The notes under the pieces: generated by a model
What the model was told of the DNA's origin: nothing
What the model saw: only the letters and a program-made list of their open reading frames with translations
Databases searched by the model: none
In this document: one piece after another, positions 15,169-61,500 of the stretch
Layout of the letters: each line of letters starts with the position of its first letter
How positions within the stretch are numbered: the stretch's first letter is position 1
DNA from: a virus
Lineage: Duplodnaviria; Caudoviricetes
Reading direction: 5' to 3' (one strand)
Length of the DNA: 64,000 nt
IMG/VR virus record: IMGVR_UViG_3300028048_000099
Location: 1 to 64,000 of that record
Program-made: the position numbers and the translations under genes

Positions 15169-17517
15169 ATGAAACTGCAGTTGAATGAGAAGACACTGAA
15201 CGCTTATATGCAGAGGGCGATAAACGAGGAGATTGACGAGCTTTTCGGAAGCAGGGTCCGCAAGCAGTCCCAGAGGATGATTACCGGAAAGGGATGGGGA
15301 AACGGGAGACGTGACTCCACAAACGGGTGGGGAGCGGCCGCGAACTCTGATATAAGCGCGACGGACGCTGAATCTGATACACCTCAGACCCTCGTGGGTA
15401 TGATTACCAAAATGGAACGGGGTCTTCAGTCTATTGAGCAGGCAGCCGGTATAAATTCACCGGCGGGAAACCTGGCCGCGACAGTCACTGGGGCCGGGGG
15501 TGTGAAGAACAGTCTTCTCGCCGCGATTAACGCGCTCACGCAGATAGCGAACAGGCTTAACAAAGTTGAGAGGATGAGCGGGTCAAACGCGATTATGGAA
15601 AATACCGCTGATTATGCGGATGCTGCTGTTGGAGGAAACGCAGCTATCGGGAATGCAAGAAATATAGGGAAACTTACTGGCTTGCAGAAAGATTATACAA
15701 CGGCCGCCACAAAAGCAAGGTCTGCGGCTGCGAAACAAGGAGCGGCGACGAGGGCCCTTAACAAAGTTCCTAAAGGCAGCTATGTGGGAAATCTTCAGAC
15801 AAATCAGGAAAACGCCATTGCCGCAAATAACGCTGCCAAGCAAGCAAAGGCCGCAAAAGCCGCCGACATGAAAGCCGCTAACATAACAAAAGACACCGGT
15901 TTCTGGGGCAAACAAGCCGCCACTATGAAAAACGGGGTACAAGATATGAAGGCTGGCTTGAAGGGCGTCACTAAAGCCGGACAGACATTGAGTAAAGCAC
16001 AAAGAGTCGGTGTTTTTGCTGGCGGTGCTTTAAAGGCGACCAGCCTTGCTACAACGCTTCTCACTATTGCTGACGAGGCCGCGAGACAGGCCGCACAGGG
16101 AAGACAAAGGAACATCGTGCGCACATACAACGCCGCCGCGGTGCTCGCGAGGCGTATGGGAAGCATACTTCAGGATATAAGCGACCAGACAGGTGGCGGA
16201 CAGGAGCAGGAGGTTGTCACTGAGATAAACGTCAGCCGCGGAAAGAGAAGTTTCGGCAGCATTGAGCAGGGAATGCAGGCCTTGTCCCAGGAGATGAGAC
16301 GAATCGGCGGCGCCACACAGGGCTCAACCGTTAACGGACAGGACCGCGTCTTTAACATACCGCAAGGCATAGACCTCAATACCCCTCAGGGTGTGAAGGC
16401 CTTCCAGGAGTGGGTCAACACCATCCAGGACGCGAACGGGAACGCGCTTATCACTGACAACGAGGGTCAGCCCCTTGTCCCGGACGGGAAGTGGGGACCC
16501 AAGACCAACGCTGTGTATGACAAGATAGCCCAGATGATACGACAGTCTGGTCCAGTCAACGAGGGCCTGGTTACGGAGAGAAGGGATATTGAGACCGCGC
16601 TCGCCAATCTTGAGAGGGCGGCGGGAGCTACGGGGTCCGGCGGAAACGCGTACTCGAGCATCAGCGCCATGTCCGGAGGGGCTGACGCGAGCAGACTACA
16701 GAACGCGCAGAATATCAAGAATATAATAAGGACGTACCCGCCGGTGCTTAACCAGTACCTGAATGTCCTGGCTGACGCTGGCGCGGAAGTGTCCGGAATC
16801 CAACCTCTCAACGTTGACACGAGACCGCACAGGAATTACTCAATCAAGGAACTTAAGGCAATAGACAGCAGAATCCAGGAGCTTCTCCAAATCGCGCAGA
16901 ACACGCAGGCCCCGGAAGGGGAGGAAGGTGAGCAGCAGGGAGGAAACCTCATTATCAGGGGCACGCTTCCCCCTAAGCCTGTGAGACGACCGAATCCCAA
17001 TCCAACCCCCCAACCGGCAGAACCTGAGGAGCCTAAACGTGATTTTAACAAGGATTTCGGTCTTGAGAAAATTACTCCTGGGGATAATTTAACCGCGCAG
17101 GCCGAAACTGATAGTTATCTTGAATATTCCCCGTTTGATAACGACCCTTATAAACTTAAGTCCTACGGAATTATTCCAAATAATAAATCGGGAAGAATAA
17201 CCAAGAGGGAAATTAAGGAAAAAATAAAGACGGCCGAAGCGGAAGGCAAACTTACGCATGACCAAGCTACCGAACTTTTAAGAAATCTCAGAATGGACTA
17301 TAAGAACGGAGTCGGACAGGTGTACCAGAATTCTGACGGGTCATTGGCTACCACGACCAGGACAGCCGACAAACGCGCGCGTGACCTCGGTTTGCAAACC
17401 TCCAAAATAGAACAGCCGGCATGGGTTAATGAAAACAAGAAAACCCGCAAAAACAAACTCAACGAGCAACAGTTCAAGAGACTCGTGAAACAGATAATAA
17501 GGGAAAGCCTCAGATAA
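15169..17517 (+). CDS. 782-aa modular Ala/Gly-rich protein with PG-binding-like module; putative internal head / ejected protein
   Basis: N-terminal LQLNEKTLNAYMQRAINEE and C-terminal KLNEQQFKRLVKQIIRESL; GVKAFQEW...LVPDGKWGPKT; Pro-rich linker. Confidence 0.7.
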   Translation: MKLQLNEKTLNAYMQRAINEEIDELFGSRVRKQSQRMITGKGWGNGRRDSTNGWGAAANSDISATDAESDTPQTLVGMITKMERGLQSIEQAAGINSPAGNLAATVTGAGGVKNSLLAAINALTQIANRLNKVERMSGSNAIMENTADYADAAVGGNAAIGNARNIGKLTGLQKDYTTAATKARSAAAKQGAATRALNKVPKGSYVGNLQTNQENAIAANNAAKQAKAAKAADMKAANITKDTGFWGKQAATMKNGVQDMKAGLKGVTKAGQTLSKAQRVGVFAGGALKATSLATTLLTIADEAARQAAQGRQRNIVRTYNAAAVLARRMGSILQDISDQTGGGQEQEVVTEINVSRGKRSFGSIEQGMQALSQEMRRIGGATQGSTVNGQDRVFNIPQGIDLNTPQGVKAFQEWVNTIQDANGNALITDNEGQPLVPDGKWGPKTNAVYDKIAQMIRQSGPVNEGLVTERRDIETALANLERAAGATGSGGNAYSSISAMSGGADASRLQNAQNIKNIIRTYPPVLNQYLNVLADAGAEVSGIQPLNVDTRPHRNYSIKELKAIDSRIQELLQIAQNTQAPEGEEGEQQGGNLIIRGTLPPKPVRRPNPNPTPQPAEPEEPKRDFNKDFGLEKITPGDNLTAQAETDSYLEYSPFDNDPYKLKSYGIIPNNKSGRITKREIKEKIKTAEAEGKLTHDQATELLRNLRMDYKNGVGQVYQNSDGSLATTTRTADKRARDLGLQTSKIEQPAWVNENKKTRKNKLNEQQFKRLVKQIIRESLR

Positions 17518-17522
17518 AAAAG

Positions 17523-17548
17523 AAACCCGGGTTAAGCCCGGGTTTTTT
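17523..17548. terminator. Bidirectional intrinsic terminator
   Basis: AAACCCGGG-TTAAG-CCCGGGTTT between convergent genes, with A/T runs on both sides. Confidence 0.8.
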
Positions 17549-17554
17549 ATTTAC

Positions 17555-18529
17555 TTATTTTTTGTTTAAATCAACCAAAAACTTCTCACCAATCTTGCTC
17601 TTCCTTTCGTGCTTCTTCTGTAATAAAGGCAACTCCCTTTCTGTTTCATCCGGTTTTTTAAAGCCGAGTTTTTTTATTTCACCGATTGGGTCTTCCAGGT
17701 CAAGTATATAAAAATAACTTACATTTGAGCCATATTCGTCGCATATTTCTTTCTCTGCCTTAATTCTGGCATAGACAGCTTCCTCAAAACTGTCATAATT
17801 TCCAAGATAAATTGTCCGGTATTTTGACATTATCCTTGCGGTCCACTTTTCGTTTTCCCTTAACCATGAAACACCGCAAACATGATTTTCTTTCCTTATG
17901 TTTTTCATGTTGTCCTTATGGCGGCAGATACGGAGATTTGCACACCTATTGTCTAAGGAGTTTCCGTTAATGTGGTCTACACATTGGTCTAATGTATAGT
18001 TGGTGTCATTGAACCCACATAAAAACCTATGTAAAAACAGTTTTTGACCGCCAGGGAGACTTATCATGGCGTACTTCTTTTTAGCTGCCGTACGCATATA
18101 GATTTTATACTTTTCAACCAATTTTTTCTTGTCTAAATCTATCAATGTCCGCCCAACCTCTTCAAAGTTCTTATTAACCATCACGCATTCGCAATAACCC
18201 TCCTCCACGTGGTCAATGTACTGGTTCCTATCGAAAATCGTATGCTCCAAAATCTTTCCATGCCTAACCATTTGCAAATAATGTTTCCTGCAATAGTCCT
18301 TGCCGTCAGTCCATGTACATCTTCCCTTTTCACCACAAATACAACATTCTCCAACCCTATTCCTTTCTCTTTCCTTTGGTAAAATTTCTCCATACTTTTC
18401 AATTTGCGATGCATGTTTTGGACAATATATTTTATCCTTGATTTTTTTAAAAGATACCGTATGTTCTCCATATTTTTCTCCGCACACACAGCAAGTCCAT
18501 TCGGCTTTATCAATCTTCGGTCTTCCCAT
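17555..18529 (-). mobile_element. Free-standing HNH-AP2 homing endonuclease
   Basis: Two CxxC...YCxKH Zn modules; VDHINGNSLDNRCANLR (HNH); GVSW...KWTARI...YLGNYDSFEEAVYAR (AP2); AT-rich; own ACTATTTAT at 18554-18562. Confidence 0.88.
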
Positions 18530-18620
18530 TTTTGTCTTTTTTTGTTTCTATATATAAATAGTACAAATAAGACAAAAAAACAAGAGTAACAAAAAAAATT
18601 GGGCTGAAAAACCCAATTTT

Positions 18621-24624: not shown

Positions 24625-25431
24625 CTATCTCCATCCTTGTTTTATCTTATCCTGCTTTGCCTTAATTGCCGTGCGGCCGATTCTATGTAAGAAATTGTTT
24701 ATTTCCTTTTCAAGTCTTTTAACTGTTATTCCGAAACTATTAAAATACTCGGTAAATATATTTTTCATGCCATCATCTTTTTGTAATTCATGCAGTGTTT
24801 CTTTCATAAACACATATATTTCCCAAGCCTCACTTTTTTTAACCAGTTCTTCTGAATACGGCTCCATTGAATCCATTAAGAAAGCATAGAAACCATTATT
24901 AAACCCCTCCTGTTCCGATTTTAAAGTATAGTAAAATAACTTGCCGATTTTTTGACGATTTATATCTGCAGATATCATGTCATCCTTAATTTTTGCATAC
25001 AAAGAATCGCTTCCGAACCCTGTCCCCATTTTGATTTGCTGGTATATATGCTCTATCTCGTGTTGTATTGTTTCCATCGCGGCGGTTTTATTCAACGTTC
25101 CGCATACCGCATACACATTTATAAAGCACAAATACACATTGGATGATAAGCGGAAAGAACTTCCATCTGTTACATGCGGTTCTTCATATATTCTATTATA
25201 GTCCTTGGATAAAAAATTGCGATATGTGATGGAGCAGCTTAGTTTTACGTCATCAATAAAAAAGGTCATTGGGGCGGTTTTCTTAACCATGACTTCCGTT
25301 TTACTTGCGACGTCTGCATCCTTAAGGCTCTCTAACATTTGTTCAAAAAAAATCTCTGAGTATTTTCTAACAACATCAGAGATACCGTACTCTTCCTTAA
25401 TTATCTTTCTTAATTCTTCAATCAGCAACAT
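24625..25431 (-). CDS. Putative zincin metallopeptidase (HExxH), paralog A
   Basis: TIQHEIEHIYQ plus downstream SEQEG; AT-rich; clear paralog of 28785-29615. Confidence 0.65.
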   Translation of the reverse strand: MLLIEELRKIIKEEYGISDVVRKYSEIFFEQMLESLKDADVASKTEVMVKKTAPMTFFIDDVKLSCSITYRNFLSKDYNRIYEEPHVTDGSSFRLSSNVYLCFINVYAVCGTLNKTAAMETIQHEIEHIYQQIKMGTGFGSDSLYAKIKDDMISADINRQKIGKLFYYTLKSEQEGFNNGFYAFLMDSMEPYSEELVKKSEAWEIYVFMKETLHELQKDDGMKNIFTEYFNSFGITVKRLEKEINNFLHRIGRTAIKAKQDKIKQGWR

Positions 25432-28784: not shown

Positions 28785-29615
28785 TTATTCCTTTGGCGGG
28801 TCCGGTATCAAACCATTATGGTCTATCAAATCAGCCTCCATATCTTTCTCAGCCTTGGCGATGATTTTCCCGATTTTATTGGTGTACGCCGAAACGACTT
28901 TCTTCGCCATATTCCTCCACCAGTTATAGTGGCGGTTGAAATTCTTCTGACACGCGTTCTCTATTCCTTTTTTACAGGCCGGGGACTTGTCTTCAATAAA
29001 CTTTTTAATTGCTGAGATGTTCTGGTAAATGTTTGTCTCCTTAACAACATCTATCGGGGCTTTTCCCCAGTTATCCATAATCTCACTGTATAACCCGTTC
29101 ATCTTCCCGTCCTTCTCAAACCTGTTGGCCAAGTATAATGTCCATCCGACAAGTCTCTCATACAGGTCCCCTGTCCGCATCATTCTATTGGCCTTGACAT
29201 ATATATCGGTGTTTTTTGACGTCAAGAGAGGTTTACCGCTCCTGCTTTCCTGGTACGCGTGCTCCACCTCATGCTGTAAAGTGCCCCCCAGGTCTATGTA
29301 ACGGTTCTCGTCCCGGAGAAACACGACAGTTGTTCTTAAGGTTTTAGTCGTGCTGTTATGGGCGCCCAGGTTGGATAAGCCGAGGGAATCAATCTCCGAT
29401 TTATCCTTCACAAAATACACGTCATACAATATCTCTGTCTTCACCCCGAAGAGGTCAAAATCCTTTATGACACCGCTTATTTTGTTTTTGAAAAGGGGTT
29501 TTCTTTTTTTATCCTTTATGATTGCGGACATGATGCCGTTTGTGACATCTTTAACCGTTTCGGATATTCCCAACTCCTCTTTCACCAGTTGCGAAATTTT
29601 CTCAAAAAGCTCCAT
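28785..29615 (-). CDS. Putative zincin metallopeptidase (HExxH), paralog B
   Basis: Start MELFEKISQLVKEELGIS at 29615; TLQHEVEHAYQ plus FEKDG. Confidence 0.65.
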   Translation of the reverse strand: MELFEKISQLVKEELGISETVKDVTNGIMSAIIKDKKRKPLFKNKISGVIKDFDLFGVKTEILYDVYFVKDKSEIDSLGLSNLGAHNSTTKTLRTTVVFLRDENRYIDLGGTLQHEVEHAYQESRSGKPLLTSKNTDIYVKANRMMRTGDLYERLVGWTLYLANRFEKDGKMNGLYSEIMDNWGKAPIDVVKETNIYQNISAIKKFIEDKSPACKKGIENACQKNFNRHYNWWRNMAKKVVSAYTNKIGKIIAKAEKDMEADLIDHNGLIPDPPKE

Positions 29616-31445: not shown

Positions 31446-32294
31446 TTAAAGCCCAAGCAAAGTTTTCAGGGTGGAATTCTCGTTGTCCCTCAAAGTTTTC
31501 GCTATGCTTGAGTAATCCGTGGCGTTGCGCACGTCGTCCCTGGTGATTGTGTACCTGGGCTCCCCGACGCCGTTACGGTCGTCCTCCGGGCTATAGTTCT
31601 CGGGGGCGTCATTCTCCATATACTCCTCAGGGGTCTCCTGGAAGGGTTTGGACTGGAGTGAGCGCATGGTCAACCTCTCAACCGAGGTGGGGTTCCTCTT
31701 CTCAAACTCCGACTCGAGGTTTCTCATGAACTCGGCGTTTGACTTCAACTCACCCTGGAACTCGCTGAACTTCTCAAGAAAACTCTCAAACTTGTCCGTG
31801 AGTTTGTCAATGGCCTCCTCGTTCCTCTTCTGCCCGTCAACAAGCTCGTCAACATCTATGACTTCCTCGTCCTCTCCGCCTTCCTGTTGCTGGTTTCCCT
31901 GCTGGTCGTCAGGAATAGCCTCATCAAAACTTTCCTGGGCCACATTAGCGTCAGCGGGGGCTCCGTCCTGAGGGGCGAATCCCGGGACACCCTGCGCGGC
32001 GTTGGGGTCGGCTCCCGGCATGGGGGCTGCTCCACCCGCGGCCATAGGGTCAGCTCCGGGCATGGGGGCGGCTCCGCCAGCCATAGGGTCGGCACCCATA
32101 CCCATTCCGGGGTCCCCGGCGGGCATGGCTCCACCCGCGGCCGCAGGGTCAGCCATTCCGGTGGCGTCATCAAGACCGTCACCGTTTCCGTCAACCTCCT
32201 CAAGATTGCCTCCGGCGGTGACATATTCCATCAAATAATTAAAGCGCTTAACCCCCTCAAGCAGACCTTTCTCCTTTAAGAACCTCTTGTCCAT
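31446..32294 (-). CDS. Acidic low-complexity protein, putative prohead core/scaffold component
   Basis: LKE/LLE/LME/LEE motifs at the N-terminus; GADPMAGGAAPMP tandem repeats; coiled coil; RNPTSVERLTMRSL. Confidence 0.55.
   Translation of the reverse strand: MDKRFLKEKGLLEGVKRFNYLMEYVTAGGNLEEVDGNGDGLDDATGMADPAAAGGAMPAGDPGMGMGADPMAGGAAPMPGADPMAAGGAAPMPGADPNAAQGVPGFAPQDGAPADANVAQESFDEAIPDDQQGNQQQEGGEDEEVIDVDELVDGQKRNEEAIDKLTDKFESFLEKFSEFQGELKSNAEFMRNLESEFEKRNPTSVERLTMRSLQSKPFQETPEEYMENDAPENYSPEDDRNGVGEPRYTITRDDVRNATDYSSIAKTLRDNENSTLKTLLGL
32005..32110 (-). repeat. Coding tandem repeat (GADPMA(A)GGAAPMP)
   Basis: About 2.5 copies of a 39-42 nt unit. Confidence 0.75.
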
Positions 32295-49774: not shown

Positions 49775-50146
49775 ATGAAAAAGACAGTGAAGAAAAATAT
49801 CAACGAGATGCGTGACCTTGTCAAGAGCATGCCTAAAACCATAAACGAGTCGCTTGACTTTAGCGGCGAGGGTGACATGTATGAGGAGGAGGAAACGCCT
49901 GAGGAAGAACCTGTTGGGATTGAGGACGAGCCTGACCAGGCGACGGCGAGCGAGCACGCGGCACAGCTTATTGACGATATCAGGAAAAAGGCGCTGAGGG
50001 CCATGGCTGACCTCGCGGACACCCCCGAGGATGAGAACTATATCATGCTTAAGAAAGTCTGGCAGATGACCGACAGGAAGCCTGAGCAGCAGCAACAGAA
50101 CCAGAACGCCCCGGTACAGGGACAAGCCGGCGTCATTCAGAGATAA
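49775..50146 (+). CDS. Small acidic late protein (INE motifs; putative head-internal)
   Basis: MKKTVKKNINEMRDLVKSMPKTINES; ACTATTTAT at 49744-49752. Confidence 0.7.
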   Translation: MKKTVKKNINEMRDLVKSMPKTINESLDFSGEGDMYEEEETPEEEPVGIEDEPDQATASEHAAQLIDDIRKKALRAMADLADTPEDENYIMLKKVWQMTDRKPEQQQQNQNAPVQGQAGVIQR

Positions 50147-50202: not shown

Positions 50203-50691
50203 ATGAGTGACCTTCTTACCAAAATGCCATTGACCTATGAACCGTTAAGGAATAATAGGTGGATACTTCGTTTCCCGGCGGACCTCGGAATACAGGAGTG
50301 GACGTTAGAGTCAGCCGCAAGGCCCACAATCAACCAGAAAGCTACTGAGATTGAATTTCTCAACACCTCAACCTGGGTGGTCGGAAGATACACGTGGGAT
50401 ACCGTCAAGGTGACATTCCGCGACCCTATCGGCCCGTCAACCTCCCAGGCTATAATGGAATGGGTCCGTCTGACCTCAGAGTCCGTCACCGGACGTCAGG
50501 GATACGCCATCGGCTATAAGAGGGACCTTGAACTTGAGATGCTTGACCCTACCGGGGCCGTCGTGCAGAAGTGGATTCTCAAGAACTGCTTCCTCACGGA
50601 CGTTGACTTCGGCCAGCTCAAATACAGCGACGACGGTCTCGCCACCATTGACGCGACCATCCGTCCCGACTATTGCATACTCGCTTACTAA
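50203..50691 (+). CDS. Tail tube protein (T4 gp19-like)
   Basis: YEPLRNNRWILRF; ARP; GRYTWDTVKVTFRDPI; YKRDLELEMLDPTGAVVQKWILKNCF; ACTATTTAT at 50162-50170. Confidence 0.9.
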   Translation: MSDLLTKMPLTYEPLRNNRWILRFPADLGIQEWTLESAARPTINQKATEIEFLNTSTWVVGRYTWDTVKVTFRDPIGPSTSQAIMEWVRLTSESVTGRQGYAIGYKRDLELEMLDPTGAVVQKWILKNCFLTDVDFGQLKYSDDGLATIDATIRPDYCILAY

Positions 50692-50752: not shown

Positions 50753-51385
50753 TTAGCTGATGATTGTCCAGATTTCAAGGAACCTGTTGAAATCCTCGTA
50801 AGGCAGGACCGTGTATCCGCCGTCGCCGAAACCGGTCCCCCAGGAGTTCCTTATAATGAAACCCCTCTTGTCGTAACCGACTATTGATATCGCGTGGAAA
50901 CCGTAGAACCCGTCACGGGGCAACTTGTCCCAGAACGCGGGGCGGTCACCGTAAACGGGAAGGGCGGCGAGGCACGGCCCGTTCATCACTATGGCGGCGC
51001 GGAGGCTGTCATAGTTGCGCACCATGGCGTACTCGCCTATCTTAAGGTTCCCAACGTCGGACTTGACACCGTGGTGCCTGAGATAATGCAGGGCCTCCTT
51101 GTATGTCATGCCCTCACCGTCATTGGTCCTGATTTTATAAATCTCATGGTAATCAATCTTGTTGTCCCTCCTGGACCCGGTCTCCAGATTCTCGCGCCAG
51201 TTGAGCCAGGCCGAGACGGAACAGGGCACGCAAATCGGCTCGGAGCCCTGGTTCAGGACGCGCGGAAGGAACATCCTGTAAGAGTATGACTCCGGAAGAC
51301 GCTGGGACTCGGGGGCCCCGAACACATGCTCGGTACCGTCCATCTCGGACTTTATGAAACCGAAGTTGACGTTCTCACTTAACAT
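50753..51385 (-). CDS. Papain-like cysteine peptidase (C1)
   Basis: VLNQGSEPICV (Gln/Cys); FHAISIVGYD (His); IIRNSWGTGFGDGGY (Asn). Confidence 0.88.
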   Translation of the reverse strand: MLSENVNFGFIKSEMDGTEHVFGAPESQRLPESYSYRMFLPRVLNQGSEPICVPCSVSAWLNWRENLETGSRRDNKIDYHEIYKIRTNDGEGMTYKEALHYLRHHGVKSDVGNLKIGEYAMVRNYDSLRAAIVMNGPCLAALPVYGDRPAFWDKLPRDGFYGFHAISIVGYDKRGFIIRNSWGTGFGDGGYTVLPYEDFNRFLEIWTIIS

Positions 51386-51388
51386 GGC

Positions 51389-51766
51389 TTATTCCTCCTC
51401 CGTGACGACTTTCCTCTTTGAGACGGCGAACACGTCACCCTTGGGGGTCACTATGTAAACCATCTCTCCGTTATCATTCAACTCCTTGATAAACATGTAC
51501 CTGTCCACGACATTGCCCGTCTCGTAATCAATATAAGACCTCATTGTCCATTCCCACAGTTTCGGGGGAAGGTTGTCGGCGACGCACATGGAGTCAAGCT
51601 GGCGGGCGTCATACTCATGCCTTACCTGGTACATGTTCTGGACGGTCCCGGCGACAACCTCCACATCAGGCTTGCCCTTGTGGAAAATGCCGCGGAGAAG
51701 ACCGCAACCCGTGACCGACAGCCCGAGAAGGACCGCGACGGTCACCCTTAATAAAATGTTTCTCAT
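51389..51766 (-). CDS. Lipoprotein
   Basis: MRNILLRVTVAVLLGLSVTG-C lipobox; ACTATTTAT at 51786-51794. Confidence 0.75.
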   Translation of the reverse strand: MRNILLRVTVAVLLGLSVTGCGLLRGIFHKGKPDVEVVAGTVQNMYQVRHEYDARQLDSMCVADNLPPKLWEWTMRSYIDYETGNVVDRYMFIKELNDNGEMVYIVTPKGDVFAVSKRKVVTEEE

Positions 51767-51858: not shown

Positions 51859-54777
51859 TTAAAGGCTCTCGTCAAATTGAACGCTCTCCGGATATACAAC
51901 GAAGCTGATGCTGATGTACTCCAACGCGGGTGTGGGCTTGATGAGAATCTTCGCGGGCAGTATGTGCTGGTCGCGGGTCTCCTCGGTGCTTTCCGTAACC
52001 ACGCGGTAATCGTAGATACCCCTGTTGGCCTTGACATCCTGGAGAATGGGCTCAACGATGGAGCGGAACTGCTTCTCAAGGGTGGCGTCGTACTGCTCAA
52101 AGATGAGGTTCCTCGCGGCCTGGGAGACAAGCTTCTTCACACGAATCATGAGTCTTGAGACATTGATTCGGTTGCGTGGCGTCTCCTGGTGGTAGAGGGT
52201 CTTGTTACCCCAGACCTTGACACCGTCAACCGCGAAGGTCTTGATGGGGTTAATCATGTTCTCGTAGAGGGTGTCCTCGTCAAGAAGCGTGGTCTTGAAA
52301 TACGCCCTGGCGCAATCCACCTCACCTCTGGTCAGACCGGCGGGTGAGAACCAAGGGAACGAGACATTGTCTGTCGCCGCCATATCCCTCACGACATCCT
52401 TTGTGGGAGGAAGGTCTATATACCTCTTGCTGTCACCGTCATAGTACTTGACCCAAGGATAGTAGGTGCAGGCGTAAGGACTGTCAATCTCGGTGTCCTC
52501 AATGAATGACGCGACATCGTCCGGTCCGTAAGCCGTCATGTCCTTGTCATACTGCGGCGCCGCCATGATGTAGAGCGCGTCACCGCCGCGGCCGTCCTCG
52601 CTGTCCTCAATGATGTCAAGAGCGTCCTCGGTGAGCAGGCTCTGGTCGTACCAGTTGATACCGGGGGTCGCGAAGAGGTTGATGTCAACATCCTCAGGGT
52701 TCGCGAACTGCATGTAACCGGCGAGATACGCGTAGTAGTCGGTGGTTATCGCGATGTTCGGGAGCTTAAGGCTTACCATGGGGTCAAGCTCGAGCTCAAA
52801 ATCACCTCCGATGGGACGGAAAATCTCCTTCTCATAATATCCGGAACCCTCTTTCTTTAGAGTGTACTTGTTACCCCTATAGTTGTTGGTGTTGGTCCTG
52901 TGGTCGCGGTTGATGTCCCAGCCGTCAAAACCACCGTAAGGATACACGGTGAACTTGCGGAGATTGATGTCCTTGTAAAGGCAATCCTCAAGATACGCGG
53001 TGGGCAGGATACGCGGGATTCGGTTGTACTTGTTCATCTGGATGGGGTCCACGGTGGTGAAAGTGAAACCTGACTGTCCGTCAACCTGCACAACCGGGGC
53101 GGTCTCCCCACTGGGGACGTCCTGTGAGGCCGTGATAATGGAGTCAAGGTGGAAACCGTTGGTCAGAATCTCAGGCTCAGCATCACCTACTCCGTCCGCA
53201 TAAGCGTCAACACCCTTATAGTTAAGGATATCGTAATCAAGAACCTCGTCATTGAGTCCGAAATACTGCCTCTTGGGTTTGACGGTGTTATCATAAACCG
53301 TATTGTAATTCATGGTCAGACCACAAACGGTACCGTATTTAGGAACGGGATAACCAAGGAATCCGCAAGGGACACAATCATCTATACCCTCTTCCCCGCT
53401 AAGCTCAATTGCCACATATTTTGACTTGTTGGGATAACTACCGTCAATGGTACCTATCTTAAGACCTACGAAGTTAGACTCACCCTCAACCATTGAGCAG
53501 TTGGTGAACTTCTCAAGGACAACCTGGGACATGTCGCTGTCATAGAAATCACGTACCACAACATCGAACAGACCCTCAACCGGACGGATTCTCTGGATTG
53601 ATATCTTGACCTGATAGTTGGCCGCGTTACCGTCACTGATTGTATACACCTTGAAAAGTTTCTTGAGGTCAATGGTCTGGGTTGAGGCCGCCTTAACCTC
53701 GGAAACAAGCCAAGGGGTTACCGCGCAACGGTAAGTTGATATGTAGTTCCAATACCTGAACTCCCTATCGGTAGTCTCGGATTCCGGGAAATAATCACAA
53801 GGGACCCGGGTTTCACCGGATGTCTCTCCGGAGGTGGTACCGGTGTCGCCGGTGGTTCCGCTCTCCTTCCCACAACCCTTTGGAATGGGGCCGAGACCGT
53901 GAATCTTATAAGGAAGTTCATACTCCTCAACATATCCAGTCTCTACGTCAGCGGTCCTTGCCGTCTCGGTATTCGCCGTCATCTTCGCGTAAATCGTATC
54001 ATAAAGCTCCTTGTAAAGAGCCATATCATACGCCGCCTCAATATAGACGGGCGCCGAACCTACGAGCGGGTCCTCGGAAAACATCTTGTAAATGTAATCC
54101 GGGTCAGACGGGTTCATGGACACGTTATAAACAACCTTATTAGCACTGTCACCCGTGACCGTGGCGTCACAATAAGTGATTTCAAGCGCGAACTTACCCA
54201 AATCCACGTTGATATTATTATTACAGTCATAACCAGCCACAGCCTTAGGGTCCTGTGTGTAACCACTTCCGGTTATCTCACAATTAGCTCCATATACATT
54301 CCCGCTGTAAGGAAGAATGTCAATATTGGTAACTATATCCTCGGGAAATTCCGAAGATTCCACACAAATACCCTGCTGGGTTGTATCTCCTGAATAAGTC
54401 TTCTTTGAACGGAGGATAACGGCGGGTAGTTTATCGTCGGCCGAGATGACCCATGCCGCGCCGGCCCAATATCCCGAGAGACCGAGGACGCGGACGACCT
54501 GGAGCTGTTTTGACTCCTCAAGGTACGCCTTCGCCACATAGGGAAGCTCGTATTTGGGGTAATTCGTGCCCTTGAACTTTATGGGAGAGGTTCCCCCGAA
54601 ATAATCGGTGAAATCCGTCCAGCTCGCGATTGAAATCGGCTGAAACGCGGGGCCCTTGAGGGTCTCGCCGGCCAGGCCGAGTGTGGTGATACCCAGACTT
54701 CTTGTGGAATAGGTTACGTCCCTCACCTCGGTGTACACGCCGGGGGAGACATGACCGCCTCTTGCATCGCTTATCAT
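51859..54777 (-). CDS. Contractile tail sheath protein
   Basis: HVSPGVYTE; GETLKGPAF; YYPWV; PWFSPAGLTRG; INPI...VWGNKTL...RINVSRL; FEQYD; ACTATTTAT at 54811-54819. Confidence 0.95.
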   Translation of the reverse strand: MISDARGGHVSPGVYTEVRDVTYSTRSLGITTLGLAGETLKGPAFQPISIASWTDFTDYFGGTSPIKFKGTNYPKYELPYVAKAYLEESKQLQVVRVLGLSGYWAGAAWVISADDKLPAVILRSKKTYSGDTTQQGICVESSEFPEDIVTNIDILPYSGNVYGANCEITGSGYTQDPKAVAGYDCNNNINVDLGKFALEITYCDATVTGDSANKVVYNVSMNPSDPDYIYKMFSEDPLVGSAPVYIEAAYDMALYKELYDTIYAKMTANTETARTADVETGYVEEYELPYKIHGLGPIPKGCGKESGTTGDTGTTSGETSGETRVPCDYFPESETTDREFRYWNYISTYRCAVTPWLVSEVKAASTQTIDLKKLFKVYTISDGNAANYQVKISIQRIRPVEGLFDVVVRDFYDSDMSQVVLEKFTNCSMVEGESNFVGLKIGTIDGSYPNKSKYVAIELSGEEGIDDCVPCGFLGYPVPKYGTVCGLTMNYNTVYDNTVKPKRQYFGLNDEVLDYDILNYKGVDAYADGVGDAEPEILTNGFHLDSIITASQDVPSGETAPVVQVDGQSGFTFTTVDPIQMNKYNRIPRILPTAYLEDCLYKDINLRKFTVYPYGGFDGWDINRDHRTNTNNYRGNKYTLKKEGSGYYEKEIFRPIGGDFELELDPMVSLKLPNIAITTDYYAYLAGYMQFANPEDVDINLFATPGINWYDQSLLTEDALDIIEDSEDGRGGDALYIMAAPQYDKDMTAYGPDDVASFIEDTEIDSPYACTYYPWVKYYDGDSKRYIDLPPTKDVVRDMAATDNVSFPWFSPAGLTRGEVDCARAYFKTTLLDEDTLYENMINPIKTFAVDGVKVWGNKTLYHQETPRNRINVSRLMIRVKKLVSQAARNLIFEQYDATLEKQFRSIVEPILQDVKANRGIYDYRVVTESTEETRDQHILPAKILIKPTPALEYISISFVVYPESVQFDESL

Positions 54778-56815: not shown

Positions 56816-58840
56816 ATGGTTTTTACGAGCGCGAAGGCACAAAACGAGGCGATTGAGATATTAAGGGGGTATTCAGGTACTAACCCTTACTATCTCATGC
56901 TAAAAAGGGATGTCATCCTCAATGGTGACGTCAAGAAGCTTAATGCCTTCAATGTGGAATATATCATTGAAAACCAAAACTTCATACCGAGACAAATCGG
57001 TAAGACGGTTAAAATCGCCGACTGGTACGGACTCAAGAAACAGCAGGACTGGGGCACGGAATTCGTCCCCCAAAAACTTCGTGTGGTCAGTCTTCTCGGG
57101 GAAACGAGCACGACTTACCATTGCTATGTCCAATACAGGCAGAGCGTGGACCCGGTTATGGCGTTCCTCCCCAAAAAAGCGGTACTTACCAACTTCACTT
57201 TACCGGACTGGCACGATTATCCGGTTGATTTTGACCGATATGATAAACTGTCAATGTCAAAAGACCCGAACAGGAGGCTGAAACTTCACCAGAAGGACGG
57301 CGTGAGGTTCCTTCTCGCGAGAAAAAAGTGCGTCCTCGCCGATGATATGGGTTACGGGAAGACCTGTGAGCTCGCCGTAGCCGCCATTGAGGGTAATTTT
57401 GACGCCGTGCTCATCATCTGTCCCGCCTCAATCAAGACAAACTGGAAAAAAGAGCTCATGTGGTATGTCCCGGAGAGGGATATCACCATAATCGAGTCAT
57501 ATCTTGACAAAAATAAGGGAGAGCTGGAAAAATATCTCGGTTACAAGGAAGGAAAGTCCGGTTTAAGTGTCCCGGAGCTTCAGAATGAGGCCAAAGAGGC
57601 CGGTAAATGGGGTGAAAACCGTTTTGTCATTGTCAATTACGATATCATCAACGAGTTTTATGAAATACCGGCCACGAGAAGCCGGGAAAACATAGAAAAA
57701 GCATACCAAAACAGCCCGATGCTCCAATATATAGCAAACAAGAAGGCGTTGGTAATCGTTGACGAGGCCCACAGACTGTCAAATACGACGGCTGACAGAT
57801 ATAAAATCATAAAGGACCTCATAAAGAGGGGAAACCCGGACAGCGTTTACCTGGCGACCGGAACACCAATCACGAACAACCCCCAAAACTATTTTAATCT
57901 GCTCCAGCTCATCGGCGACCCTGTGGCTGATGACAGGGAATATTATATGAAGCGTTACTGCGCGGCGATAGAGATACCGAGAAACGCGAAGGAAAAGGCC
58001 AAGCGCGACGCGATAAGCAGGAAATTCATCGCGAACAGGGGCAAGTCAAACTGGTACGAGCTTACGGACGGCGAAAAGGACGAGTTGCGTGAAATCGTGA
58101 AGAAAAGCGTGCGTATGCTGACCATTCCAAACGGCGAGAGCAACCTGGAGGAACTTAAGGACCGCACCGCGCACATTTATCTCCGCCGGGTGAAGGAAGA
58201 CCTGCTTGATTTGCCGAACAAGACCGTTCACGAGGTGTTCTATGACCTTGATATGGGTCAGATAATGGAATACAACCGGCTCTGGGAAGAATACGAGGCG
58301 GCGCAACTGGAGGCTGACCCGACGAAGGACCTGAACAAGGAACTTTTGGAGGGCGCGATTTACCGCAAGTACCTTTCAAACCAGATGGTGCCTAACACAA
58401 TCAAACTCGCCGACTCATTCATCGGGAAGGGTGAGAAGGTCGTCATCGCGTGCTGTTATGACGAGGAACTGTATACGTTGAGAGATTACTATGGGGACAG
58501 ATGCGTAATCTACAACGGGAAAGTGTCCGCCAAAGACAAGGACAGGAACATTGAGAGGTTCACCAACGACCCGAACATTATGGTTTTTATCGGGAATATT
58601 CAGGCGGCGGGCGTTGGGATTACCCTATTGGCTTCCCACGTGCTGATTTTCAATAATATAAGTTTTGTGCCGGGCGATAATCTCCAGATGCAGGACAGGA
58701 TTTACAGGATTGGGCAGACAAAAGACGTGGATATTTACTACCAGATTTTCAGGGACACACAATATGAGAAGATGTGGAATATTGTTCTTCGTAAATCATT
58801 GGTTATAAATCAAATAGTAAAGAAAGAAGACGAAAAGTGA
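56816..58840 (+). CDS. SNF2-family helicase
   Basis: LADDMGYGKT; IICPAS; VDEAH; ATGTPITN; LRRVK; GVGITL; QMQDRIYRIGQ; promoter-like TTG-N20-TATCAT at 56764-56794. Confidence 0.92.
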   Translation: MVFTSAKAQNEAIEILRGYSGTNPYYLMLKRDVILNGDVKKLNAFNVEYIIENQNFIPRQIGKTVKIADWYGLKKQQDWGTEFVPQKLRVVSLLGETSTTYHCYVQYRQSVDPVMAFLPKKAVLTNFTLPDWHDYPVDFDRYDKLSMSKDPNRRLKLHQKDGVRFLLARKKCVLADDMGYGKTCELAVAAIEGNFDAVLIICPASIKTNWKKELMWYVPERDITIIESYLDKNKGELEKYLGYKEGKSGLSVPELQNEAKEAGKWGENRFVIVNYDIINEFYEIPATRSRENIEKAYQNSPMLQYIANKKALVIVDEAHRLSNTTADRYKIIKDLIKRGNPDSVYLATGTPITNNPQNYFNLLQLIGDPVADDREYYMKRYCAAIEIPRNAKEKAKRDAISRKFIANRGKSNWYELTDGEKDELREIVKKSVRMLTIPNGESNLEELKDRTAHIYLRRVKEDLLDLPNKTVHEVFYDLDMGQIMEYNRLWEEYEAAQLEADPTKDLNKELLEGAIYRKYLSNQMVPNTIKLADSFIGKGEKVVIACCYDEELYTLRDYYGDRCVIYNGKVSAKDKDRNIERFTNDPNIMVFIGNIQAAGVGITLLASHVLIFNNISFVPGDNLQMQDRIYRIGQTKDVDIYYQIFRDTQYEKMWNIVLRKSLVINQIVKKEDEK

Positions 58841-59619
58841 GTATAGAAAACAGCATAAGCTTAATGGAAAGAATGGGGATGCTTCCCCCCGATAAAAAAT
58901 TAAGGAGAAACGTTTTTGGATGTCACGAAACCATTGACGGAATAATAGAGGAAGGCATATTCAGGTCTTACGATGCGGAAAAAATACTTGAGGTCCTGAA
59001 ACATCATTATATTATACATCGTGATAATCAGGCGCCAAAAACAGAATCGGAAATCACTATAGAGTTTGACGCATATAAAGATACCCCGATGACATATGGC
59101 ACGGAAGAAGCGAGTGTCATAACAATCATCGTAAAAAGAGGAACGGAAGAAAAAAAACTGAAGCGTTTTTTCAACACCTGCGGATGGCCAACGGCGGAAG
59201 AGCACAACCATGAAACGGATAAAACGTCAGTAGTTGTAACGTTTGAAAAGAGGAGACAGGAAGATGAATTACCCGTACCAAAATTTTTATATCATCTGAC
59301 ACCGGAAAACAAGGTTGGTAAGATTTTGAAAAACGGATTAGCGCCAAAAGCGCAAAACAAATTGGGGGAGCATCCGGATAGAATATATTTTTTCTCGCAA
59401 AAAGATTTAACATTGAATTATAAATCTTATGCCGATGATTTTTGGGCAAGCGCGCACAAAGACACGAGGCGGGACATCAAATACTCATTACTTAAGATAG
59501 ATACTGAAAAATGCCGGAATGATTTTAAAATATATGGCGACCCGAACATGATTAGAGGGGTATGGACTTTTAACAATGTGCCGCCAGAAGCAATAACAGT
59601 GGAAGAAGAGGGAATTTAA
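58837..59619 (+). CDS. Putative ADP-ribosyltransferase (Tpt1/KptA-like), paralog B
   Basis: FLYHLTP...ILKNGLAPK...RIYFF...LLKID...DPN..RGVWTFNNVPPEAI. Confidence 0.65.
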   Translation: MSIENSISLMERMGMLPPDKKLRRNVFGCHETIDGIIEEGIFRSYDAEKILEVLKHHYIIHRDNQAPKTESEITIEFDAYKDTPMTYGTEEASVITIIVKRGTEEKKLKRFFNTCGWPTAEEHNHETDKTSVVVTFEKRRQEDELPVPKFLYHLTPENKVGKILKNGLAPKAQNKLGEHPDRIYFFSQKDLTLNYKSYADDFWASAHKDTRRDIKYSLLKIDTEKCRNDFKIYGDPNMIRGVWTFNNVPPEAITVEEEGI

Positions 59620-59621
59620 TT

Positions 59622-60089: not shown

Positions 60090-60091
60090 AA

Positions 60092-60580: not shown

Positions 60581-60971
60581 AGATGAGGTCCTGATATTCG
60601 TCAAGCCGATATGCAGGAACACGGACCAGACATACGAGTATGATTTGTTCTTCAGCGACACGCCGGACATTGTCTGGGGCGTTGACTGGGAGGTCAACAC
60701 GCCCGGGCTTGTCTCCACCGATGAGATAACCCCGGACCCGACCACTTATAACAAGGTCGTCAGGATTAAGGTGCCGTACCCGTTGAAGACCGTACAGGAG
60801 ACATATTGCTACTCAATGGAATATGCTATCGCGAGGATTATAGCACTTTCATGGATTGATATAGAGAATATGGAAGAATACCCCGAAAAAGGAAGAATGG
60901 TTCTCTATTTCGGGGATACCTTTGAACATGTACAAGGGGTTTTGAGTGAGTTTGATGTATATATAAAATAA
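60570..60971 (+). CDS. Hypothetical protein, tandem paralog 2
   Basis: FVKPICRNTDQTYEYDLFFSDTPDIVWG...CYSMEYAIARIIAL. Confidence 0.8.
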   Translation: MSSKDEVLIFVKPICRNTDQTYEYDLFFSDTPDIVWGVDWEVNTPGLVSTDEITPDPTTYNKVVRIKVPYPLKTVQETYCYSMEYAIARIIALSWIDIENMEEYPEKGRMVLYFGDTFEHVQGVLSEFDVYIK

Positions 60972-60972
60972 A

Positions 60973-60997
60973 AAAAATCAGGTTAAGCCTGATTTTT
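60973..60997. terminator. Bidirectional intrinsic terminator
   Basis: AAAAATCAGG-TTAAG-CCTGATTTTT; same loop as the 17523 terminator. Confidence 0.8.
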
Positions 60998-61005
60998 ATT
61001 TATCG

Positions 61006-61500
61006 CTACCAATCATAATCTCTCTCGGCACGTTCAGGGTCACTGTCATCATACCCCCATCCATCAGTATCCGGGTCGTCATATGGGAATTCCCAATCAA
61101 AATCATTCCAATTCAAATTATTTAGATATTTGTCAAGAGCTTTCATAAATAAACTGACTTCTTCGTTTGATAATGGCTTAATACCGTAATTTTCACAATA
61201 TCTTGGGCTCTGTAAAACATTCATAATTTCATCCCTGTTCGAGATGTCACCCCAGTTAACATCACCACCAGCATCAAAACTAGCTTCAAGACACATATAG
61301 TCACTTACGAGTTCACAAACCGAAATAAGCATGTCATTTGGGAATATCTTTGGAAATTTGTCATCGTCTATACGTATAAAAGCATGTGGCCATTCTTGCT
61401 TTGCTTCATTAATAGTATTAAATACACGCCTGACACTCTCGCTAATCATCTTGTGAAGCTGTGCCTCATTTATTCTTATTATGTTTCTTTTCCTTTCCAT
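61006..61500 (-). CDS. Acidic protein with INE/ISES leader (putative head-packaged protein)
   Basis: IIRINEAQLHKMISESVRRVFNTINEA leader; Asp/Trp-rich C-terminus; TATTTAT at 61518-61524. Confidence 0.7.
   Translation of the reverse strand: MERKRNIIRINEAQLHKMISESVRRVFNTINEAKQEWPHAFIRIDDDKFPKIFPNDMLISVCELVSDYMCLEASFDAGGDVNWGDISNRDEIMNVLQSPRYCENYGIKPLSNEEVSLFMKALDKYLNNLNWNDFDWEFPYDDPDTDGWGYDDSDPERAERDYDW

What the first reader, a model, noticed from the sequence alone, without database searches (positions are those of the whole stretch)
15169..61500. Candidate head-packaged effector set: unrelated cargo domains sharing an [IL]-x-E helical leader
Seen: several unrelated proteins begin (one also ends) with a similar amphipathic segment rich in [IL]xE. 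Examples: LQLNEKTLNAYMQRAINEE and C-terminal KLNEQQFKRLVKQIIRES (15169); LLIEELRKIIKEE (25431); YELTEEDLKKMTNSIIFHLKES...LMEG (27426); LFEKISQLVKEE (29615); FLKEKGLLEG..LMEY (32294); NINEMRDLVKSMPKTINES (49775); SLMER...IIEEG (58837); IRINEAQLHKMISESVRRVFNTINEA (61500). In the ART pair, homology begins right at the last xxE-G. Established: T4 prohead protease gp21 cleaves after Glu in [IL]-x-E, and T4 internal proteins and the ART Alt are packaged, processed and injected. Inference: this leader is a portable capsid-targeting/cleavage tag appended to diverse enzymes (ARTs, metallopeptidases, an acidic protein), giving a modular injected payload for host takeover or anti-defence. Caveat: LxE is common by chance, and some of these genes sit in early-looking operons.
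Basis: partly seen in the sequence, partly recalled or inferred. Interest (0 to 1): 0.85.

Follow-up and report, generated by a model that had tools for sequence, protein, structure and literature searches.

The report
Shared leader helix on jumbo-phage proteins

Summary
The window is the first 64 kb of a 98-kb fragment (about 26% complete) of an uncultured T4-related jumbo myovirus.

**What is real.** There is a portable peptide of about 25 residues with consensus KTIKL[TN]ESQLRKIIKESVKKVL[NK]E. It is a short strand followed by an amphipathic helix. Its best-conserved positions are three [LIV]-x-E triplets. A profile search found 1281 protein clusters carrying it.

**In the window.** The peptide lies at both ends of the 782-aa protein (15169-17517) and at the start of the 164-aa protein (61006-61500). 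Three more genes on the contig, beyond the window, carry it. The other six listed proteins do not match above background:
- the two HExxH proteins in the window are full-length paralogs (a third lies beyond it);
- the ART-like gene at 27426 is a twilight case;
- 32294, 49775 and 58837 do not match.

**Evidence for capsid loading.**
- Relatives encode a gp21-type head protease.
- The capsid protein's maturation site is L-x-E|A, as in T4.
- Leader genes share a TATTTAT promoter motif with tail and head genes.
- In relatives, leader genes flank the protease gene.
- Leaders are more conserved than the protein bodies.

Packaging, cleavage and injection have not been tested. Similar leaders were noted by this scan on other jumbo-phage DNA. 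Verdict: a new variant of the T4 capsid-targeting principle, of moderate to high interest.

The parts
15145..15151 (+). TATTTAT promoter-like motif (context ACTATTTATGGAAAAA), 24 nt upstream of the 15169 start codon
   Evidence: The same motif precedes the sheath, tube and head-module genes.
15169..17517 (+). 782-aa protein with a leader at each end. It is the only + strand gene between the minus-strand ORF at 14330-14962 and the HNH endonuclease gene at 17555-18529, which is followed by nrdD.
   Evidence: Orthologs in G001 and G003 keep both leaders. The first 30 residues are 67% identical to the ortholog, against 24% for the body. No Pfam or PHROG family matches.
15169..15246 (+). N-terminal leader variant MKLQLNEKTLNAYMQRAINEEIDELF (residues 1-26)
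   Evidence: 3.7 bits on the external profile. Orthologous N-termini in G003 score 23.8 and 14.1 bits.
17449..17514 (+). C-terminal leader copy KNKLNEQQFKRLVKQIIRESLR (residues 761-782, ending at the stop codon)
   Evidence: 10.2 bits against a reversed-control maximum of 8.2. 8.4 bits in a leave-one-out test. Sub-threshold PF25734 match of 16.3 bits.
61006..61500 (-). 164-aa accessory protein with a canonical N-terminal leader. It is a lone minus-strand insertion between conserved + strand genes.
   Evidence: The relative G002 has only 11 bp between the orthologs of the two flanking genes. No ortholog was found in the five related contigs.
61402..61485 (-). Canonical leader NIIRINEAQLHKMISESVRRVFNTINEA (residues 6-33)
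   Evidence: 36.7 bits on the external profile. 10.3 bits in a leave-one-out test. A low-confidence AF2 model puts a helix at residues 12-36.
61518..61524 (-). TATTTAT promoter-like motif, 24 nt upstream of the 61500 start codon
26656..27426 (-). 256-aa ART-fold candidate (weakly Tpt1/KptA-like). Its N-terminus YELTEEDLKKMTNSIIFHLKES is only a twilight match to the leader.
   Evidence: 4.0 bits on the external profile and -0.4 in a leave-one-out test. No TATTTAT motif upstream. Homology to its paralog family starts at E46-G47. The ART reading rests on ESM Atlas leads at 0.87 and a PDB Tpt1 hit at E = 0.033. The AF2 model has pLDDT 46.7 and is unusable.
58837..59619 (+). 260-aa paralog of the ART-fold candidate, co-oriented with the SNF2 helicase gene and overlapping its end. 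No leader match.
   Evidence: -3.6 bits. BLASTP E = 6e-22 to 26656-27426. phrog_5470 RNA 2'-phosphotransferase at E = 2.8e-4.
24625..25431 (-). 268-aa HExxH protein (HEIEH), one of three full-length paralogs, located in the replication module. Leader match is below background.
   Evidence: 5.1 bits. Paralogy shown. No Pfam or PHROG family. The ESM Atlas gives only viral hypothetical clusters.
28785..29615 (-). 276-aa HExxH paralog (HEVEH). No leader match.
   Evidence: -0.5 bits. BLASTP E = 8e-14 to 24625-25431 from residue 1.
31446..32294 (-). 282-aa acidic protein, a conserved core gene next to the ORF at 30300-31304 that I read by eye as a possible gp32-like SSB (PHROGs found no family for it). 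No leader match.
   Evidence: No profile hit. Orthologs are 72-81% identical in G001 and G003-G005. The neighbouring 334-aa ORF has no PHROG family.
49775..50146 (+). 123-aa acidic protein under a TATTTAT motif (49746-49752), just upstream of the tail tube gene. No leader match.
   Evidence: 1.0 bits. Promoter motif. Orthologs in G001, G003 and G005. Tube gene identified.

Best explanation
The strict leader has consensus KTIKL[TN]ESQLRKIIKESVKKVL[NK]E. It is a removable address tag of a T4-related jumbo-phage lineage.

Proposed mechanism:
1. Late genes produce proteins that carry the tag, usually at the N-terminus. Some carry it at the C-terminus or between modules.
2. The amphipathic helix docks the protein onto the scaffolding core of the growing prohead.
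3. The gp21-type prohead protease cuts after Glu in the tag's [LIV]-x-E triplets. The first cut is most likely at the invariant L-x-E, which lies in the extended segment just before the helix.
4. This frees the cargo inside the head, and multi-module proteins are cut into pieces.
5. The cargo then travels with the DNA.

What is shown: the motif exists, is portable and is biased to protein termini. It associates with a promoter motif shared with structural genes. Relatives have a gp21-family protease and an L-x-E|A maturation site in the capsid protein.

What is inferred: docking, cleavage, presence in virions and injection.

In the window this applies to the 782-aa protein (15169-17517, tagged at both ends) and the 164-aa protein (61006-61500). 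It does not apply with any confidence to the ART-like, HExxH or acidic proteins.
For: **Motif reality**
- A profile of 25 copies finds 1281 cluster representatives at E <= 1e-3 among 1.84 billion proteins.
- An external profile of 258 copies gives 21 hits of 10 bits or more in 483 kb of related phage DNA, against 0 in reversed controls. Seventeen of the 21 lie at protein N-termini.

**Match to protease specificity**
- The three best-conserved acidic positions are Glu at 100%, 83% and 90%, with almost no Asp.
- Each has I, L or V at P3 (97%, 99% and 94%).
- Conservation ends at the third triplet.

**Portability**
- The 23 motif proteins fall into 16 BLAST-unrelated body families.
- The copies share no DNA-level similarity.
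- In 4 of 6 ortholog pairs the leader is 60-80% identical and the body 24-30%.

**T4-type head maturation in the lineage**
- PF03420 scores 92.5 bits in G002, whose sheath is 78% identical to the window's. phrog_207 head maturation protease scores E = 2e-40 there.
- The protease is also present in two complete 355-kb and 393-kb genomes that carry 17 and 11 motif hits.
- The capsid protein's cleavage site aligns with T4 gp23 LTE|A as LNE|A and LKE|A.

**Co-regulation**
- TATTTAT lies within 70 nt upstream of 12 of 21 leader genes, against 90 of 473 other genes (Fisher P = 1.9e-4).
- It also precedes the sheath, tube, scaffold-side and portal-side genes.

**Position**
- In LR756508.1, roughly 25 small leader-type genes flank the protease and capsid genes.
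- In G002, G006 and G007, genes between the portal-side gene and the protease begin with leader-like sequences. T4 gp67 and gp68 occupy that position.

**Precedent**
- T-even internal proteins are diverse and share only a capsid-targeting sequence (PMC3012670).
- T4 propeptides target proteins into the prohead core (PMC10052503).
Against: - No proteomic, structural or genetic data exist for any member.
- The 98-kb contig itself has no head module and no PF03420 match, so the protease is inferred from relatives.
- The motif is much longer than the 10-residue T4 tag and shows no sequence relation to it.
- Many copies are internal or C-terminal. The T4 tag has not been described in those positions.
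- Two of the three Glu lie inside a predicted helix, which is a poor protease substrate.
- Glu-rich and Lys-rich amphipathic helices often contain h-x-E by chance.
- The association with the protease may be purely phylogenetic. The cultured relative Flavobacterium phage immuto has the protease but essentially lacks the motif.
- The invariance of the first Glu is partly circular, because the copies were collected with a profile in which it was already invariant.
- The motif gives sub-threshold matches to the first half of Pfam PF25734, a RelB-like antitoxin model. This points to a strand-helix pairing module as an alternative.
Confidence: 0.5

Rival explanations
1. The peptide is a self-pairing or partner-pairing assembly module. 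A short strand plus a helix would pair like half of a ribbon-helix-helix. This would link many small proteins into an internal mesh such as a scaffold or inner body, or hang them on a common virion hub. No proteolytic removal and no role in injection would be needed.
For: - All ten strong database members tested match positions 2-24 of the 43-position Pfam model PF25734 (RelB-like antitoxin) exactly over the motif, at 10-26 bits. Nine of 150 match at E < 1e-3.
- 142 of the top 150 proteins carry two copies, and 25 carry one at each end. Two-ended tags suit chain or mesh formation.
- The 782-aa window protein is tagged at both ends.
- The late-type promoter and the head-module position fit this reading as well.
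Against: - No match reaches the Pfam cut-off of 27 bits, and the second helix of the model is never covered.
- This reading does not explain why the conserved acidic positions are strictly Glu with I, L or V two residues before, nor why conservation stops at the third such triplet.
- It is not exclusive of cleavage.
Confidence: 0.2
2. The peptide is a common docking helix for a non-virion partner, such as a host or phage hub protein, a chaperone or a protease adaptor. A varied set of small accessory proteins for host takeover or anti-defence would use it inside the infected cell, and none would be packaged.
For: - Leader genes are accessory and fast-changing. The 164-aa gene is a lineage-specific insertion, and bodies diverge faster than leaders.
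- In the two complete genomes, many copies lie far from the head module.
- The N-terminus of T4 gp23 is known to direct fusion proteins to GroEL (PMC3012670). N-terminal helices in this phage group can therefore address other machines.
Against: - The promoter motif is shared with tail and head genes, not with the replication genes.
- Leader genes cluster strongly around the protease and capsid genes in LR756508.1. Sixteen of 18 hits fall within 80 kb of a 484-kb genome.
- Genes in the prohead-core position carry leader-like starts.
Confidence: 0.15
3. There is no shared function. The similarity is the generic look of Glu-rich and Lys-rich N-terminal amphipathic helices, combined with paralogy.
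For: - Six of the eight listed proteins do not exceed the reversed-sequence background.
- The HExxH proteins are plain paralogs.
- About 5% of random 30-residue windows already hold two [IL]xE.
Against: For the strict motif this is excluded:
- 1281 clusters at E <= 1e-3;
- scores up to 39 bits against a control maximum of 8.2;
- 17 of 21 hits at N-termini;
- 16 unrelated body families.
Confidence: 0.05

Closest known systems
Capsid targeting sequence (CTS) of phage T4 internal proteins IPI-III and Alt, removed by the gp21 prohead protease
   Same: - A short leader is shared by otherwise diverse, fast-evolving proteins.
- The leader ends in hydrophobic-x-Glu, the gp21 cleavage motif.
- The phage lineage has a gp21-family protease, a gp23-type capsid protein with an L-x-E|A maturation site, and late-type expression (PMC3012670).
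- If the cut falls after the first L-x-E, the removed piece is about 7-10 residues, the size of the T4 tag.
   Different: - The conserved unit is about 25 residues (strand plus helix), not 10, and has three h-x-E triplets.
- I saw no sequence relation to the T4 tag, though this was not tested formally.
- It also occurs at C-termini and between modules, typically twice per protein among the best database hits.
- Nothing has been tested experimentally.
N-terminal propeptides of head and ejection proteins in giant phages (phiKZ, 201phi2-1, SPN3US), cut by gp21-like proteases
   Same: A gp21-like protease removes N-terminal propeptides of 20-250 residues after x-x-Glu. Propeptides contain several cleavage motifs and are cut into fragments. 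One C-terminal propeptide is known (PMC10052503).
   Different: Those phages use A-x-E or S/A/G-x-E. Their propeptides are protein-specific and are not one portable consensus peptide. [quoted passage not shown]
Pfam PF25734, RelB-like putative antitoxin family (43-position model)
   Same: Positions 2-24 of the model (strand plus first helix) align exactly over the leader in all ten strong members tested.
   Different: Every score is below the curated cut-off (best 25.7 bits against 27; best in the window 16.3). The second half of the model is never matched. The carriers are 90-780-aa phage proteins with unrelated bodies, not small antitoxins.
T4 prohead core proteins gp67 and gp68, and vertex protein gp24
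   Same: - They lie between the portal and protease genes or near the capsid gene and are processed by gp21.
- The T4 gp24 N-terminus MAKINELLRES and the gp68 N-terminus MLLIPETHELVLEN look like short versions of the leader.
- Genes at the same position in G002, G006 and G007 start with leader-like sequences.
   Different: No detectable homology of the bodies. The resemblance of the N-termini is by eye only, and those of the core-position genes score below the profile threshold.

Membership tests
T4-type CTS / gp21-processed head cargo | The phage encodes a gp21-family (Peptidase_S77) prohead protease | tested here: inconclusive
   There is no PF03420 match in the 98-kb contig, which is only 26% complete and lacks the head module. 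The protease is present in the close relative G002 (92.5 bits; phrog_207 E = 2e-40). It is also present in LR756508.1 and in two complete motif-bearing genomes.
T4-type CTS / gp21-processed head cargo | The leader contains or ends in hydrophobic-x-Glu, matching the lineage's cleavage motif | tested here: met
   There are three [LIV]-x-E triplets with Glu at 100%, 83% and 90%. The lineage's capsid protein aligns LNE|A and LKE|A with the T4 gp23 site LTE|A. The cleavage position in T4 is textbook knowledge.
T4-type CTS / gp21-processed head cargo | The same leader sits on otherwise unrelated proteins | tested here: met
   Sixteen BLAST-unrelated body families among 23 motif proteins. 1281 database clusters. 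In the window only two proteins qualify.
T4-type CTS / gp21-processed head cargo | Late expression together with structural genes | tested here: inconclusive
   The TATTTAT motif is enriched upstream of leader genes (12 of 21 against 90 of 473, P = 1.9e-4). It is shared with the sheath, tube and head genes. No transcript data exist. The ART-like and HExxH genes lack the motif.
T4-type CTS / gp21-processed head cargo | The protein is present in proheads or virions and the leader is removed | not testable with these tools
   No cultured member and no proteome are available.
T4-type CTS / gp21-processed head cargo | Sequence relation to the T4 tag MKTYQEFIAE | not tested
   The T4 ip genes were not fetched. 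By eye the two share only length and an M-K start, a hydrophobic residue and I-x-E.
Pfam PF25734 RelB-like antitoxin | Score at or above the curated cut-off (27 bits) over the whole 43-position model | tested here: not met
   Best in the window 16.3 bits over positions 4-25. Best among strong database members 25.7 bits over positions 2-24.
ADP-ribosyltransferase fold (Tpt1/KptA-like) for 26656-27426 and 58837-59619 | A significant family match or a confident ART fold | tested here: inconclusive
   No Pfam family. phrog_5470 at E = 2.8e-4 with no stretch passing on its own. PDB Tpt1 at E = 0.033 over 31 residues. ESM Atlas ART-clan leads at 0.87. The AF2 model has pLDDT 46.7 and is unusable.
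Zinc metallopeptidase for 24625-25431 and 28785-29615 | An HExxH motif within a recognised metallopeptidase family | tested here: inconclusive
   HEIEH and HEVEH are present and aligned. No Pfam or PHROG family matches. The ESM Atlas gives only viral hypothetical clusters, with SprT-like and LPD23 as weak leads.

The most novel reading that the evidence does not exclude
The 25-residue peptide is a general 'address plus cut here' code of a large group of uncultured T4-related jumbo phages, likely of rumen and gut Bacteroidales. It is placed at the start, at the end and between modules. This would let these phages load dozens of unrelated, rapidly exchanged proteins and polyproteins into the head, dice them with the head protease and deliver them with the DNA. 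The strand-helix unit would also serve as the docking element onto the scaffold. If so, it is a natural modular protein-packaging system far larger than T4's internal proteins.
Probability: 0.3. Interest if true: 0.8.

Novelty: new variant of a known kind. Interest (0 to 1): 0.62.

Why it matters
If the tag works as proposed, it would explain a sizeable share of the small unannotated genes in jumbo phages of anaerobic gut and rumen communities. It would mark them as virion-delivered cargo, and so as candidates for early host takeover or counter-defence. It would also show that the T4 internal-protein principle scales to dozens of cargos and to polyproteins.

The profile gives a simple sequence handle for predicting packaged proteins in metagenomic phage genomes: 1281 clusters are already matched and none is covered by Pfam. 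The peptide is also a candidate tag for loading foreign proteins into large capsids.

For this particular window the practical message is narrower. Two genes carry the tag. The enzymes that made the finding attractive are not shown to carry it.

Tried and rejected
- **Nucleotide searches.** Megablast and blastn of two window segments against GenBank phages found nothing.
- **Word-based protein search.** A search with the leader of the 164-aa protein found only the protein itself.
- **tblastn.** A two-copy database protein against GenBank phages gave no match.
- **Pattern-based locus search.** A back-translated DNA pattern was too strict and gave 7 viral and 6 genome hits. It still led to two complete genomes and a host lead.
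- **Whole-contig search.** The 387.7-kb ENA contig (locus L049) that carries a strong member could not be searched whole because it is not held.
- **Leave-one-out test.** With seeds from this contig alone it supported only four of seven seed segments. I therefore rebuilt the profile from relatives and then from external proteins.
- **AF2 models.** The models of the 164-aa protein (pLDDT 45.8) and of the ART-like protein with a 4-row alignment (pLDDT 46.7) were too poor for fold searches, which I did not run.
- **DNA-level repeat or translation-start element.** Rejected. Copies are only 30-50% identical in DNA, and C-terminal and internal copies exist.
- **Peptidoglycan-binding domain in the 782-aa protein.** Only PG_binding_3 at E = 0.14, so it is kept as a lead and not as a claim.
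- **Homology between the acidic 282-aa protein and the acidic head-module protein of G002.** No BLAST match was found.

Full report
**Context.** The window is the first 64 kb of a 98,150-bp linear IMG/VR virus record that CheckV rates 26% complete. It encodes:
- myovirus tail genes: sheath at 51859-54777, tube at 50203-50691 and baseplate wedge at 5229-7184;
- a replication block: NrdD, a DnaB-like helicase, an exonuclease, a UvsX-like recombinase, a dUTPase and an SNF2 helicase;
- several homing endonucleases.

It has no tRNA genes and no nucleotide match in GenBank phages. The sheath protein retrieved 17 related viral contigs at 67-85% identity. I assembled five of them, G001 to G005, for comparison.

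The capsid protein of relative G002 belongs to the T4 gp23 superfamily and matches 2579 phage records. Its nearest relatives are an uncultured 484-kb phage (LR756508.1), a Microcystis phage and Flavobacterium phage immuto. This is therefore a fragment of an uncultured T4-related jumbo phage.

**Checking the observation.** All quoted peptides are present. Listing every N-terminus on the contig showed clearer examples outside the window, at 87813, 88239 and 88998. A seed profile from this contig alone was not convincing. In a leave-one-out test only four of seven segments beat the background.

The same seed profile nevertheless picked up N-termini in the related contigs at 12-25 bits, against a background below 6. 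After iteration the scores were bimodal, with 25 hits at 16 bits or more and the rest at 11 or less. I aligned the 25 copies as A1, in which one Glu is invariant, and searched 1.84 billion cluster representatives. This gave 1281 proteins at E <= 1e-3 and 23 at E <= 1e-10.

From 258 copies in the 150 best external proteins I built an independent profile. Its consensus is KTIKLTESQLRKIIKESVKKVLNE.

**What the external profile says.**
- Over 622,414 six-frame residues of the six related contigs it gives 21 hits of 10 bits or more. Reversed sequences give none, with a maximum of 8.2 bits.
- Seventeen of the 21 hits lie at protein N-termini and two at the very C-terminus. One is internal, in a protein that also has an N-terminal copy. 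One is spurious.

| Example | Bits |
|---|---|
| 61500 | 36.7 |
| 15169, C-terminus | 10.2 |
| 15169, N-terminus | 3.7 (orthologs 23.8 and 14.1) |
| 25431 | 5.1 |
| 27426 | 4.0 |
| 49775 | 1.0 |
| 29615 | -0.5 |
| 58837 | -3.6 |
| 32294 | no match |

- The HExxH proteins are paralogs along their whole length, so their similar starts are inherited.
- The loose property is enriched overall. Two or more [IL]xE occur in the first 30 residues of 16 of 94 proteins, against 4.7% of internal windows (P = 8e-6). About a quarter of those 16 are expected by chance.
- Verdict on the observation: partly confirmed.

**Anatomy of the motif.**
- It begins with a basic, beta-prone stretch (K-T-I-K-L). This is followed by [TNS]-E and then an amphipathic helix with one hydrophobic face.
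- The most conserved positions form three triplets:
  - [LIV]-x-E at columns 6-8 (Glu 100%);
  - [IV]-x-E at columns 15-17 (Glu 83%);
  - [LI]-x-E at columns 23-25 (Glu 90%).
- Asp is almost absent at these positions. Conservation stops after the third triplet, which is often followed by Gly, Ser or Ala.
- The 100% figure for the first Glu is partly circular, because the collecting profile already had it invariant.
- The copies on this contig are only 30-50% identical in DNA, so the pattern is maintained at the protein level.
- The 23 motif proteins of the six contigs fall into 16 body families with no BLAST relation.
- In four of six ortholog pairs the first 30 residues are 60-80% identical and the body only 24-30%.
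- Among the 150 best database proteins, 127 have a copy at the N-terminus and 30 at the C-terminus (25 have both). 142 have exactly two copies, with a median spacing of 118 residues. The unit therefore also marks module boundaries.
- Pfam and PHROGs do not annotate the motif.

**Evidence on function.**
1. *Head protease.* The contig lacks a head module and has no PF03420 match. Relative G002 encodes a gp21-family protease (92.5 bits; phrog_207). It sits in a T4-like order: a portal-side gene, three small genes, the protease, a scaffold-like acidic protein and the capsid protein.
2. *Cleavage specificity.* The T4 gp23 maturation site LTE|A aligns with LNE|A in G002 and LKE|A in LR756508.1. The lineage's protease very likely keeps the L-x-E specificity.
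3. *Promoter.* A TATTTAT motif, noted by another reader of this genome and verified here, precedes the sheath, tube, scaffold-side and portal-side genes. It lies upstream of 12 of 21 leader genes, against 90 of 473 other genes (P = 1.9e-4). Several leader genes without it are second genes of leader operons.
4. *Clustering in LR756508.1.* Sixteen of 18 profile hits lie within 80 kb around the capsid gene, all on one strand. Roughly 25 small genes there start with a close variant of the leader, such as MKLTERKLR..VKEE. They flank the protease gene on both sides.
5. *Complete genomes.* Two complete genomes of 355 and 393 kb carry 17 and 11 hits, and both encode the protease. The genes between the portal-side gene and the protease start with leader-like sequences.
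6. *Precedent.* T-even internal proteins are a diverse set sharing only a capsid-targeting sequence (PMC3012670). T4 propeptides target proteins into the prohead core. gp21-like proteases of giant phages cut propeptides at several x-x-E sites (PMC10052503).

**Mechanism proposed.** The tag docks late proteins onto the scaffolding core. The protease cuts at the h-x-E triplets, first at the invariant one in the extended segment before the helix. That cut would remove 7-10 residues, the size of the T4 tag. The cargo stays in the head. I put this at about 0.5. Docking, cleavage, packaging and injection are all inferred.

**Rival readings.**
- *Pairing module.* The strongest rival comes from an unexpected result. 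All ten strong members tested match positions 2-24 of the Pfam model PF25734 (RelB-like antitoxin), exactly over the motif. All scores are below the cut-off, and the second half of the model is never covered. This fits a strand-helix pairing module that could tie proteins together or to a hub. Two-ended tagging would suit that role, and it need not exclude cleavage.
- *Cytoplasmic docking helix for accessory proteins.* This is possible but fits the promoter and head-module clustering less well.
- *Pure chance.* Excluded for the strict motif. It remains the default for 29615, 32294, 49775 and 58837.

**The supposed cargo enzymes.**
- The ART reading rests on weak, concordant leads only: phrog_5470 at E = 2.8e-4, PDB Tpt1 at E = 0.033 and ESM Atlas ART-clan clusters at 0.87. 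The AF2 model was unusable.
- The HExxH proteins have the motif but no family match.
- Both groups lie in the replication block without the TATTTAT motif. The claim of a packaged enzyme payload is therefore unsupported for them.

**The two window genes with the tag.**
- The 164-aa gene at 61006-61500 has its own promoter motif. It is an insertion: G002 has only 11 bp between the orthologs of its neighbours.
- The 782-aa gene is tagged at both ends, has its own promoter motif, and keeps both tags in its orthologs.

**Novelty and standing.** The principle is known from T4. What is new is the peptide itself, its length and three-triplet design, its use at both ends and between modules, and its scale. 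Notes from this scan describe similar leaders on other jumbo-phage DNA (for example e1-5675126 and e1-5933997). I could not verify that they are the same peptide, and they are not independent evidence.

Noticed in passing
window 15145, 49746, 50164, 51792, 54817, 61524 and others; G002 throughout: A promoter-like motif, consensus (A/G)(C/A)TATTTAT(A/G)(G/A)AAAA, lies 7-42 nt upstream of start codons. It precedes the tail sheath, tube, head-module, fibre-like, leader and several homing-endonuclease genes. There are 33 exact TATTTAT copies on the contig, against about 14 expected for both strands.
   Followed up: partly
window 25497-26633 and 26656-27426: The UvsX-like recombinase and the ART-like protein just upstream both begin MAQPLK. 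This suggests the ART-like gene was inserted with a duplication of the recombinase start. Another reader reports 22-bp direct repeats here.
   Followed up: no
contig 64826-69883 (beyond the window; L042): The DNA polymerase is split into two ORFs, with the third HExxH paralog (67345-68253) between them. In relative G002 the polymerase is one 1143-aa ORF. Another reader proposes a split intein.
   Followed up: no
L021:5419-6462:+ (G002): An HNH homing endonuclease ends with a leader copy (VKLNEQDLKKIINDTLKKLL, 18-23 bits). It may be a remnant of the gene it invaded.
   Followed up: no
L059-L063 (genome contigs): Five of six pattern matches in 596 Gb of prokaryote genomes lie on 10-287-kb contigs of rumen Bacteroidales and Paludibacteraceae MAGs (sheep, yak, reindeer, RUG). 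These are probably jumbo-phage contigs binned with their hosts, which gives a lead on the host.
   Followed up: no
window 16246-16608 (residues 360-480 of the 782-aa protein): A ...DGKWGPKT... segment looks like a peptidoglycan-binding repeat, but it scores only E = 0.14 for PG_binding_3. A database protein with the leader at both ends (P0084) has sub-threshold PG_binding hits at E = 1e-4 to 5e-4.
   Followed up: partly
LR756508.1 177696-183575 and 212652-214401 (L044, L047): A family of at least eight paralogous proteins of about 145-280 aa lies next to the capsid gene. They start M-[RK]-[LF]-K-x-h-L-x-E, and several contain Y-R-G-T, which looks like an Arg-type ART motif.
   Followed up: no
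window 50753-51766: A lipoprotein-like 125-aa ORF with a Cys-containing signal-like start, under a TATTTAT motif, is followed by a 210-aa protein that matches phrog_16701 'peptidase' (E = 2.6e-12). This may be a lysis or cell-wall module.
   Followed up: no
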